DNA from: Eledone cirrhosa
Lineage: Eukaryota
DNA length: 64,000 nucleotides
NCBI GenBank assembly: GCA_964016885.1
Contig: OZ024749.1
Span: 1,984,001 to 2,048,000 of the forward strand
Direction of reading: 5' to 3'
Under the pieces are notes generated by a model. It made no database searches and was not told the DNA's origin. It saw nothing but the letters and a program-made list of their open reading frames with translations. Position 1 is the stretch's first letter, and every line of letters starts with the position of its first letter. The translations under genes were made by a program, and so were the position numbers. Positions 1 to 7,029 of the stretch are shown here, piece by piece.

Positions 1-70
1 TATGTATATATGTATGTATATATATATATGTACGTATGTATATATGTATGTATGTATATATATATATATG

Positions 71-657
71 TACTGGTAACATGTATCCCAGTACAACCTG
101 TCTCATGGTCGGGTCGTTGGCGACTAAACTGGCAACCCCACCAAGGTTTCTTGGTGAGGAGGGTGGCTTTGGACATCCTGCAGGACTAAAAACAAAACCT
201 GTCAAAGGGCAAAGGAGCTCTTAAGAGTCAATGGCCATCCAAAATCACTGGGAGAGATGACCCCTTAGCCTTTGTCAAGGCAGAATTCTAGGAGAAGGAA
301 AACTCTGATATAACACCTGCAACTCTGATGGTATCCAATGATGTTGACTTGTTCTTCTTTTTGGTAAATATCTTGGTTAAGAGAGTGGGACTGGCTTTGT
401 GCAGTGCCTTTGCTCACTATAAAAGCTTCACGGCACAGGCATTGCTTTATATCTGGAGATCTCTCTGCACTTGTCGTCACATGGTACCATGGGTCCAGCA
501 CTATGTGTCAATAATTGTCACAAGTGTAGTGTTTGTACCAGAGTTTTCAAGTCGCTGGCTGGACTAAAAAGTCACACTCGTTCAGCGCATCGGTTGGGGT
601 TCTCCTACATGGATATAAAGTAGTGGCCGTACTCGAAAACGAGTTGGCAGCCACCAT
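71..657 (+). mobile_element. Bipartite non-autonomous RTE-derived element, family A (slightly 5'-truncated)
   Basis: RTE-type 5'UTR motif CTAGGAGAAGGAAAACTCTGATATAA. The 3' part encodes a C2H2 finger ([24 protein letters not shown]) like RTE ORF C-termini. Terminal stem-loop ACTCG-AAAA-CGAGT followed by an (ATGT)n tail. Near-identical copies at 19189 and 43147. Confidence 0.8.
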
Positions 658-752
658 GTATGTATATATGTATGTATGTATATATGTATGTATATATATA
701 CATATATTTATATATAGGTATATATATATATATACATATATTTATATATATG

Positions 753-846
<94 letters not shown>

Positions 847-874
847 TATGTGTATATGTGTGTATGTATGTATG

Positions 875-1343
875 TTCTTCTGGTTTTATAATTTCACAAA
901 GTTTTCCCAATAGAGAGAGAGAGTCGGTTTCTAACATAGATACAAGACTCTCTCATTGGAATTTACACAACATCAACTAGGTAGATATGTATGAATGCAT
1001 GCATGTGTAGATATGGATGTTATTGTATGTGTGGATGTGTATGTTTCGAGTTGTATGTGTGCATATGTATATGTTTTGTATCTGTACATGTGTATATGCA
1101 GTTATTAGATGCAGAATTTTTGGAATGTTTTACATATGTTTACTGTACCATTAATGGATTGTACTTGTAGTTTCCTAACTAGTTGTGTTCTTTCTGTTCC
1201 TGTGAAGCCTAGCTTCTCAAGATTTGTATTGAGGCAGTTACTAACATATCCTAGTGCCCCAATAATCACAGGCATACATCTGAAGGTGTAAACAGGGTGG
1301 AGTATCTGCAGAATACTCATCAGTTCTGCATAAATATTCTCCT
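875..1343 (-). mobile_element. 3' fragment of a second R4/Dong-like RLE retrotransposon subfamily
   Basis: Translation ENIYAELMSILQILHPVYTFRCMPVIIGALGYV...ICKTFQKF* is homologous to the C-terminus of the 1445-4354 ORF but has a different 3'UTR; bounded by (CATA)n on both sides. Confidence 0.8.
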
Positions 1344-4354: not shown

Positions 4355-4412
4355 GTATGTATGTATGTATGTATGTATGTATGTATGTATGTATGTATGT
4401 ATGTATGTATAT

Positions 4413-4934
4413 ATCGGGTCACTTTTCAGTGCAACTGGTAACATCTAACCCAGTACAACCTGTCGCATGGTCGGGTCGTCGGCGACTAAACCGGCAACCC
4501 CACTAAGTTTACTTGGTGAGGAGGGTGATTTTGGACACCCTGTAGGACAAAAAACAAAACCTGACAAAGGGCGGAAGAACACATAATAGTCAACGGCCAT
4601 CCGAAAGTGTGTAAATATGTATATACACATGTACTGCGCGGTTAAACCACTGGGAGTGAGAGACCCCTAGCCTTTGTCAGGGCATTCTTCTAGAAGCCAT
4701 CTCAGGAAACTGGGTTAACTCCGATATAAAACCTGCGGCTCAGTTGTTACCGATGATGTTGATCTTTTCTTCTTTTCGGGTTATAGCTACTGTCGCTCAG
4801 AGAGTGGGATTGGCTCAGTGCACAGTCTTTCCTCACTTTAAAAAATATCTTCATGCACAGGCATTGCACGATAGAATTAATTAATAATGGTATATCGTGC
4901 AATGGCCATACTCGATAACGAGGGGGCAGCCATC
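4413..4934 (+). mobile_element. Bipartite non-autonomous RTE-derived element, family B
   Basis: 5' region homologous to family A; ends CTCG-ATAA-CGAG-GGGGCAGCCATC then (ATGT)n; copies at 4983, 43741, 62197. Confidence 0.78.
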
Positions 4935-4982
4935 ATGTATGTATGTATCTGTATGCATCTATGTATGTATGTAAGTATGTAT

Positions 4983-5470
4983 GACGGGTCACTCTTGAGT
5001 GCTACTGGTAACATGTAACCCAGTACAACCTGTCACATGGTTGGGTCGTCGGTGACTAAACCGGAAACCCCACCAAGTTTACTTGGTGGGGCGGTCATTT
5101 TGGACACCGTTCAGGACAAAAAACAAAACCTGACAAAGCGCGGAAGAACTCATAAGAGTCAACAGCCATCCAAAAGTGTGTAAATATACATATACATACA
5201 TATGTACATGTGTATATACATATGTGTATATACATGGGTGCATGTGTGTGTATATGCGGGGGGACATAGAAATAGTCGGACTGGAAACCCGATCGCGCGG
5301 TTAAACCACTGGGAGTGAAGGACCCCTAGCCTTTGTCAGGGCATTCTTCTAGGAGAAGGTAACTCAGGAAATATCCTCACGCAGAGGCATTGCACGATGG
5401 AATTAATTGATAATTATTAATAATGGTATATCGTGCAATGGCCATACTCGTTAACGAGGGGGCAGCCATC
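4983..5470 (+). mobile_element. Family B RTE-derived element (internal deletion), tandem with previous copy
   Basis: Same 5' and 3' ends as 4413-4934, separated from it only by a (TATG)n tail. Confidence 0.78.
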
Positions 5471-7029
5471 ATGTATGTATGTAAGTATGTATGTATGTAT
5501 ATATTTGTGTATGTATGTATGTATGTGTGTATATATATATATATGTATATATATATAAACGTATATATGTATATATGTATATATGTATGTACGTATGTGT
5601 GTATGTATATATATATATACGTATATATGTATATATGTATGTATGTATGTATGTATATATGTATGAATTTAAGTATGTATCTATGTTTGCGTATCAACCA
5701 ACCTACCTATCACCATATCTATATATTTACCCCCCCCCCCCCCTACCTCCACCTCTCACCCTTTCATTATTTTAGTCCTTTATTCTTCCGTTTTCATTTC
5801 TTTCAAATAAGGAAATGAAAAGATCCTCCCCGCTCTCTCTCTCTCTTTCTCGTTCACTCCTTCTCTCTCTCACTCTCTCTTTCTTTTCCCCCGCTCTCTT
5901 TGTATGTATGTTTGTTTATGTGTGCGTGTGAGTCTCTGTGTATGCGTGTTTGAGTGTATGTGTGTGTATGCGCGTGTGGTTGAGTGTATGTATGTTTATT
6001 TGTGTGCGTGCATATATCTGTGTATGTGTGTGCTTTGTGTGTATATATATATATATGTTTGTGTGTGAAAGAGATTGTGTGTATGCGTCTGTGTGCTTGT
6101 GTGCGCGTATGCGTGTGTGCGCGTCTGGTTGTGTGCGTGTGTGTGTGTGCATGCGCGCGTGTGTGTGTGTGAGGGAACTATAAGTAAAACATACAATAAA
6201 CTGCCTGCAAGAGAAACGTGACCAAGCTCTGGTATTAGTTCCCGGATGTTGCCGAGAGCAGAGGAAAGCCTTGTCGTGGTTATTTACAAAACATTACTAA
6301 CCAACATGATAGCATATCTACAGTATACCTGTAGCAAGTTCGTGTTAAATAACTGAAAAGAAAGAATACACACAACAAAAAGGAAGGAAAGAACAAACAA
6401 GGAAGAAATATAACAAAACACTAAACTTTAGAATAGCGACGACGCCCCCTCCACACAATCATCATCATCATCATCATCACCACACCTACCAACCACAAAA
6501 AAAAACAACGCCTACGACAACTCCGTCAACAACAAAAGAGCCATTAGTAACAACAAGTTTAACAACAAAAGGTCGCAAAAGGCAAAAACAAACACTGACA
6601 CACACACACACATACACACGTACGCATACATACACACACACTTTCACATACGCGCACACACACACACTGACACTCACGCCCAGACACTCACACAAACACA
6701 CAAGAAGGAAATAATTTTCGCAAAACAGGAAAAAATACGAAAATACTGTCGAGAAAATGAGTTTAGTAAAAGATATCATGAGAGAAATCTAACAAGGATT
6801 ATTATCATTATTATCCCGCCGAGGTTAGCTCTGCCTTTCATCCTTACGGGGTCGATAAAATAAAGTACCAGTAATGCACTGGGTAATTTGCTGGCCTTGT
6901 GCCTAAAGTAGAAACAATTATTAGTAGTACTATTATCATTATTATTATTATTATTATTAGTAGTAGTAGTAGTAGTGGTGGCGGTGGTGTTGGTAGCAGC
7001 AGCAGTAGTAGTAGTAGTAGTAGTAGTGC

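What the first reader, a model, noticed from the sequence alone, without database searches (positions are those of the whole stretch)
1..5660. Self-building retroelement stacks: RTE (ATGT)n tails serve as landing pads for more RTEs and for the R4 element
Seen: order A(+), tail, R4b(-), tail, R4a(-), tail, B(+), tail, B(+). The same logic recurs at 18624-20420 (C, A, R4a) and 42757-44427 (A, A, B). Within stacks RTE derivatives are always head-to-tail and R4 copies always antisense to them, with only simple repeat between units. Inference: one LINE clade makes the microsatellite that it and an unrelated clade then target, a feed-forward loop that could also explain the abundance of (TATG)n.
Basis: partly seen in the sequence, partly recalled or inferred. 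Interest (0 to 1): 0.7.

Follow-up and report, generated by a model that had tools for sequence, protein, structure and literature searches.

The report
Two retrotransposons share one TATG target
In this likely octopus-type genome, two unrelated kinds of jumping gene are stacked inside the same TATG/CATA repeats facing opposite ways, likely because both insert into repeats that were already there, not because one builds landing pads for the other.

Summary
The stacks are real, and they are not segmental duplicates: 158 of 164 neighbouring pairs keep the stated polarity. The proposed loop is not supported. The RTE 'tail' is mostly the target site. 82 of 85 A copies have repeat on the 5' side too, the 3' repeat follows the 5' repeat's composition, duplications start right at the element's end, and 6,557 RTE ends are followed by (AT)n against 9,213 by (ATGT)n. 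Young R4a abuts TATG at 40 of 40 3' ends and 29 of 30 5' ends. It lies beside RTE ends more often than short free tracts predict (OR 6.5), but equally beside other R4 ends (OR 5.1) and RTE 5' ends. Against long pure tracts the excess is not significant (10 of 80 vs 9.0% genome-wide, p=0.24). Best reading: an R4/Dong-like element specific for (CATA)n and RTE elements preferring the opposite strand share long tracts, and each insertion leaves target on both sides. Extra: young R4a has a longer pure tract on its 5' side (58 vs 21 nt). The scan noted this system before on other pieces of this genome.

The parts
1..72 (.). TA/TATG mosaic tract 5' of A; it continues upstream of the window
73..656 (+). 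A: non-autonomous RTE derivative (5' module, last C2H2 finger, 3' stem ending GCAGCCACC); lacks the first 19 nt of the full copy
657..875 (.). ATGT/AT mosaic tract between A and R4b
876..1343 (-). R4b: 5'-truncated copy of a second, older RLE-type family (RT 57% identical to R4a)
1344..1364 (.). (TATG)5 at the R4a 3' junction
1365..4352 (-). R4a: young 5'-truncated RT+CCHC+RLE element; 969 aa open, 99.5% identical to the full-length 1174-aa frame in L034
4353..4414 (.). (ATGT)15, the long pure tract on R4a's 5' side
4415..4935 (+). B copy 1: bipartite derivative of the autonomous RTE (5' module 91%, last 40 nt 95-100%)
4936..4983 (.). degenerate ATGT tract
4984..5471 (+). B copy 2
5472..5686 (.). 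ATGT/AT mosaic tract ending stack 1
18625..20437 (.). stack 2: C (+), (ATGT)15, A (+), (ATGT)5, older R4a (-, 94.7% to stack-1 R4a), tract
42756..44690 (+). stack 3: truncated A (no repeat on its 5' side), A, B interrupted by a SINE (44162-44353), tract
62196..62793 (+). lone B copy with (TA)n on both sides and no ATGT tail
13693..14155 (-). lone older A copy (90%), (TA)n on its 5' side and a TATG mosaic on its 3' side

Best explanation
The stacks are repeated independent insertions of two unrelated LINE groups that likely both target long (TATG)n/(CATA)n tracts already present, each in its own fixed orientation. Shown: R4a has the repeat at both junctions, in a fixed phase at the 3' end; RTE derivatives have TA/TATG repeat on both sides. 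Inferred from target-primed reverse transcription: R4a nicks the TATG strand after TATGT and RTE nicks the CATA strand, so the two end up antisense to each other and head-to-tail among themselves. Inferred: each insertion splits a tract and duplicates about 11-26 bp of it, leaving target on both sides, so occupied tracts stay targets and stacks grow. RTE is looser than R4a and also uses (TA)n, where opposite orientations occur.
For: R4a 3' ends: 40 of 40 abut TATG-type repeat, found with a query that held no repeat. R4a 5' junctions: 29 of 30 visible ones have TATG within 10 nt. A: 73 of 85 copies have 5' repeat by rule; 9 of the other 12 have it just beyond an inverted or duplicated piece or a small offset. 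The 3' start follows the 5' flank: TA flank 10 ATAT: 3 ATGT, TATG flank 8: 32, p=0.0004. In mosaic flanks, duplications of 11-26 bp begin at the element's end in 12 of 29 copies; shuffled mean 14%, maximum 28%. Genome-wide, RTE ends are followed by (ATGT) 9,213 times and by (AT) 6,557 times. Neighbour on R4a's 3' side: RTE 29, R4 18, neither 32, 1 undetermined (80 loci). This matches unoccupied tracts of 20 or more perfect bases (chi-square p 0.32-0.77). Exact genome-wide null: 4,235 of 47,086 pure runs of 10+ units start at an intact RTE end (9.0%), against 10 of 80 for R4a, p=0.24. RTE on R4a's 5' side 13 of 27, on its 3' side 29 of 79, p=0.36.
Against: Counting all tracts of 12+ perfect bases, R4a is enriched beside RTE ends (OR 6.5, p<1e-6; at 16+ OR 2.9, p=0.02; site-weighted p=0.0009-0.02). 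The length-matched odds ratios stay above 1 (1.5-1.9) on only 15-34 control tracts, so a mild preference is not excluded. RTE ends are about 74-fold more frequent per ATGT site than per AT site, which could mean an AUGU-ended RNA primes there or adds units. Two of 85 A copies have an ATGT tail and no 5' repeat (window 42756, L044), and a third (L269) has only a weak one; 3 of 14 with a TA flank start ATGT. 17 of 29 mosaic copies show no duplication of 10+ bp. Many R4a 3' sides have only 5-12 perfect bases. No empty allele was seen.
Confidence: 0.78

Rival explanations
1. One reading: RTE writes new (ATGT)n tails at ordinary sites, and these tails are the pads for later RTE and R4 insertions.
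For: Known for lepidopteran RTEs, where the repeat lies between the two TSDs (PMC2887409). Count-based enrichment OR 6.5. Two A copies have a tail but no 5' repeat. Young R4a (99.5%) is younger than A (median 96.6-97.4%), so it often arrived second.
Against: 82 of 85 A copies have 5' repeat. The tail's composition follows the site. 6,557 ends are followed by (AT)n. Only 9.0% of long pure runs start at an intact RTE end. The enrichment is equal for R4 ends and symmetric.
Confidence: 0.08
2. Insertion-driven growth: the elements land in modest tracts, and R4a (perhaps RTE too) synthesises extra repeat units while joining its 5' end, so the elements build the long tracts that they then prefer.
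For: Young R4a has a median 58 perfect bases on the 5' side against 21 on the 3' side (29 copies, p=3e-5). 14 of 19 tracts with 40+ perfect bases touch an element. Some 5' junctions show element-repeat-element patchworks (window 20299-20326, L040, L188).
Against: A binding footprint of about 40 bp upstream explains the asymmetry as well: the in-register match stays at 0.96 or more for 40 nt and then falls. 5 of 29 5' sides are mosaics. No asymmetry for A (p=0.98) or older R4b (14 copies, p=0.97).
Confidence: 0.2
3. The stacks are segmental duplicates, or composites that moved as one unit.
For: The A-tail-R4a adjacency occurs twice in the window.
Against: No shared unique flank among the three stacks. 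The A copies are 98.3% alike but the R4a copies 94.7%. The stack-2 A ranks only 33rd of 76 as a match to the stack-1 A. R4a truncation points differ between loci.
Confidence: 0.02

Closest known systems
Dong elements of the R4 clade (Bombyx, Anopheles, Biomphalaria, ostracod; PMC7998251 passages)
   Same: One ORF with RT and restriction-like endonuclease, no APE; inserts in a microsatellite with fixed orientation; conserved N-terminal block where the Myb/SANT-like domain is described.
   Different: The target is (CATA)n, not (TAA)n. R4a and R4b sit in a separate 100/100 subclade. At least 1,458 young and 3,986 family 3' ends.
Lepidopteran RTEs that generate microsatellites (PMC2887409)
   Same: RTE-type 3' ends next to simple repeats in thousands of copies.
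   Different: There the repeat lies between the TSDs and is new. Here the repeat is on both sides and the duplication itself is repeat.
RTE insertion signature (PMC6007223) and bipartite non-autonomous RTEs such as Bov-A, WALLSI3, RTESINE (PMC5786205)
   Same: The terminal repeat matches the first bases of the target; B is made of the 5' module and the 3' end of an autonomous RTE.
   Different: Near-obligate residence in TA/TATG tracts (82 of 85), far beyond the one-to-two-base microhomology reported for animal RTEs.
RTE-2_OV of Octopus vulgaris (PMC9115989 passages)
   Same: APE+RT+C2H2 single ORF and a 3' UTR made largely of microsatellite.
   Different: Sequences were not compared; the passages read say nothing about target preference or stacking.
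Togen ((TG)n-specific) and microsatellite-specific HERO families (PMC4640811 passages)
   Same: RLE elements with microsatellite targets.
   Different: Other clades, other repeats.

Membership tests
R4/Dong clade | single ORF with RT, CCHC finger and C-terminal restriction-like endonuclease, no APE | tested here: met
   RVT_1 and zf-RVT; CxxC..H...C, RH, P-D and K-Y motifs conserved in alignment A1; best solved relatives are R2 proteins
R4/Dong clade | N-terminal Myb/SANT-like domain without zinc fingers | tested here: inconclusive
   conserved W..Y..W..HP block, no Cys/His finger; no Pfam hit; no profile-profile test
R4/Dong clade | RT groups with named R4/Dong references | tested here: inconclusive
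   no named R4, Dong, NeSL or HERO sequence was on hand; the tree joins it with insect RTs, including a Pediculus protein, a species listed in the R4/Dong alignment of PMC7998251 (accession not checked)
Dong (strict) | (TAA)n target | tested here: not met
   the target is (CATA)n at 40 of 40 and 29 of 30 junctions
RTE clade | single ORF with APE and RT, no ORF1 | tested here: met
   1181-aa ORF with Exo_endo_phos, RVT_1 and three C2H2 fingers
RTE clade | RT phylogeny with named RTE references | not tested
   no reference sequence on hand; assignment rests on architecture, likeness to the description of RTE-2_OV and recalled motifs
Bipartite non-autonomous RTE | 5' part and 3' end shared with an autonomous element | tested here: met
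   B: 5' module about 91% in 19 of 20 and last 40 nt 95-100% in 19 of 20 autonomous copies
Bipartite non-autonomous RTE | same feature for family A | tested here: inconclusive
   A shares modules with B (about 70-84%) and its finger is 52-70% like the RTE's last finger, but its own autonomous partner was not found
Microsatellite-generating RTE (Tay et al.) | repeat lies between two unique TSDs | tested here: not met
   repeat on both sides in 82 of 85; duplication starts at the element end
Segmental duplication | shared unique flanks and uniform identity | tested here: not met

The most novel reading that the evidence does not exclude
A real feed-forward loop exists, but it is run by the R4-type element: R4a adds (TATG)n at its 5' junction during integration, and together with target duplication by both clades this builds most long pure TATG tracts in the genome, which two unrelated endonucleases then share on opposite strands.
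Probability: 0.2. Interest if true: 0.72.

Novelty: new variant of a known kind. Interest (0 to 1): 0.42.

Why it matters
It adds a four-base target, (CATA)n, to a group described as using rDNA or (TAA)n. It shows an RTE lineage almost confined to a microsatellite. It gives a young family with intact copies (1,458 exact junctions; 1174-aa frames in L034 and L035) in which target choice and the 5'-side asymmetry can be tested. It also warns that repeat next to a LINE 3' end need not be 'microsatellite seeding': both flanks and a length-matched control have to be checked.

Tried and rejected
Rfam scan of 1-21000 gave only spurious miRNA matches to simple repeats and no ribozyme among the 150 of 173 rows shown; a ribozyme in the 5' module was not tested further. 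The ratio 1,458/3,986 was rejected as a measure of specificity, because subfamilies differ in their last bases. A search for empty alleles was uninformative: the three runs holding the flank are one sample, the RAD run barely covers it, and no empty form was seen at 42756. Duplications at R4a sites are only weakly resolvable in repeats (mean 16.9 vs 14.2 shuffled). No autonomous partner of A was found in the loci held. The first script mis-set an anchor; its 5'-junction part was redone. Segmental duplication was rejected.

Full report
Setting. The window is G000:C9:1984001-2048000 of a 3.0-Gb genome. The closest named relative of the R4a protein is from Argonauta hians (67% over part of the query; sister in the tree, 100/99), so the host is likely an octopod. 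That is an inference.

Observation. Over all loci held, 158 of 164 adjacent pairs separated only by alternating repeat keep the polarity. Three of the six exceptions have gaps that begin as (TA)n, which reads the same on both strands.

The parts. R4a is a young family: the 40 best matches to its 3' 300 bases are near-identical, and full-length 4.2-kb copies with a 1174-aa frame exist (L034, L035). The frame holds RT, a CCHC finger and restriction-like endonuclease motifs. R4b is a second lineage, 57% identical in RT, in the same 100/100 subclade (29 rows, no named R4 reference, two APE elements as outgroup). B shares its 5' module and last 40 bases with an abundant autonomous element whose 1181-aa ORF has APE, RT and three C2H2 fingers. 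A, C and D are related derivatives whose own partners were not found.

Does R4 target the repeat? Yes. All 40 BLAST-found 3' ends abut TATG-type repeat in one phase. Of 30 visible 5' junctions, 29 have TATG within 10 bases; 10 more ran off the locus edge. 5' truncation points differ, so that repeat is not carried by the RNA. Genome-wide there are 1,458 exact young junctions.

Does RTE make the repeat? Mostly not. Of 85 distinct A copies with both ends (34 from an A query, 34 from R4-anchored loci, 17 others), 73 have TA/TATG repeat at the 5' junction by rule. Nine more have it just beyond an inverted or duplicated piece or a small offset, by my reading; one is weak and two have none. What follows GCAGCCACC depends on the site: with a TA 5' flank 10 start ATAT and 3 ATGT, with a TATG flank 8 and 32 (p=0.0004). 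In mosaic flanks the duplication begins at the element's last base (L185 21 bp, L186 16 bp, L192 11 bp; 12 of 29 reach 10+ bp). Genome-wide, 9,213 ends are followed by 15 bases of ATGT and 6,557 by 15 bases of AT. Tay et al. use 'repeat between the two TSDs' as the mark of a newly made repeat; that mark is absent here. Against this, ATGT sites are preferred about 74-fold per site, so an RNA ending in AUGU may prime there and sometimes add units.

Are RTE tails special pads? Control: 120 ten-kb stretches of contig C1, 100 at random and 20 at round positions chosen blind. They hold 140 tracts; 6 were dropped as internal to elements or at an edge. For 80 young R4a copies on C1 and in the window (40 by BLAST, 40 by junction pattern), the neighbour beyond the 3'-side tract was an RTE end in 29, an R4 5' end in 18, neither in 32 and undetermined in 1 (classed by hand). 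Against all unoccupied tracts (13 RTE, 10 R4, 94 free), the RTE odds ratio is 6.5. The R4 odds ratio is 5.1, and the two do not differ (p=0.8). On R4a's 5' side an RTE 5' end follows in 13 of 27, so 'tail' is only one side of an element that has repeat on both. With tracts of 20, 28, 32 or 40+ perfect bases the three-way split is not different (p 0.32-0.77) and the odds ratio falls to 1.5-1.9, not significant on small controls. An exact genome-wide version agrees: 47,086 pure runs of 10+ units, 4,235 starting at an intact RTE end (9.0%), against 10 of 80 R4a copies (p=0.24). That 9.0% is a lower bound for RTE-flanked tracts, because mosaic starts and mutated ends are missed on both sides of the comparison. 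For older R4b (27 of 30 loci anchored, window copy left out), 6 RTE against 16 free was not significant even by count (p=0.09).

Duplication. The three stacks share no unique flank, and their units differ in identity.

Mechanism. Shown: junction sequences, polarity, two-sided repeat, duplications at A. Inferred from established target-primed reverse transcription: R4a nicks the TATG strand and RTE the CATA strand, which gives the antisense arrangement without any interaction between them. Inferred: duplication and splitting keep target on both sides, so stacks grow. Young R4a has a longer pure run on its 5' side (median 58 vs 21, 29 copies, p=3e-5), in register for about 40 bases. The likelier cause is an upstream binding footprint, by analogy with the Myb domain of R2 (recalled; PMC7998251 argues the same role for Dong). 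The rival cause is repeat synthesis at the 5' junction. The asymmetry is absent in A and in R4b. 14 of 19 tracts with 40+ perfect bases touch an element, which fits either cause.

Literature. Read as passages: PMC6007223, PMC4640811, PMC9115989, PMC7998251, PMC5786205, PMC2887409 (abstract 39, passages 76). Listing only: PMC6050309. No supplements were opened. Searches showed no (CATA)n-specific element (0 papers); I read passages of only some of the papers listed. Kojima and Fujiwara 2004 was not read and Repbase could not be searched, so prior description is not excluded.

Earlier notes. My reading was entered before the look-up. Six unreviewed notes on other pieces of this genome describe the same system and mostly reach the same view; two describe a parallel (TAA)n system that I did not test. 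They are not independent support.

Verdict. A real and orderly system, a new variant of microsatellite-targeting non-LTR retrotransposons. The specific claim that RTE builds the pads is not supported. Interest 0.42.

Noticed in passing
L151-L170 (for example L161:620-5024): The autonomous RTE looks like an ORF set inside B: the two arms of B's 3' hairpin flank the ORF about 4 kb apart, and both UTRs carry inherited simple repeats, with a SINE fragment in the 5' part of many copies.
   Followed up: partly
window 73-250, 4415-4630, 18625-18810: A conserved 5' module shared by A, B, C and D that might be a self-cleaving ribozyme, as reported for some RTEs; Rfam gave no match.
   Followed up: partly
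L149, L206, L126, L235: A copies with an inverted 5' part (twin-priming-like), with repeat beyond the inverted piece.
   Followed up: partly
L036, L113, L267, L269; inside the RTE 5' region of L128: An unidentified element that often begins right after TATG tracts; it may be a third user of this target.
   Followed up: no
window 44162-44353 and about 20 other places (6813-6923, 12590-12970, 22381-22727, 38867-39192, 46110-47040): An abundant SINE of about 190 bp, often beside (ATT)n; one copy sits in the AT-rich loop of B's hairpin.
   Followed up: no
L071:7057-9988, L074:6046-9718: A further RLE family, about 38% identical to R4a in RT; its target was not determined.
   Followed up: no
window 28217-29488, 46312-46888, 49228-50852, 26428-27592, 15297-17571: Minisatellites of 33, about 90 and 74 bp, a 21-bp GT-rich array and a 2.3-kb degenerate (TA)n array.
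   Followed up: no
window 20299-20326: The 5' junction of the older R4a copy has a short element-like piece between TATG units, like a template jump.
   Followed up: no
L030, L229: Runs of three A copies with the same truncation point in tandem, likely local duplication rather than separate insertions.
   Followed up: no
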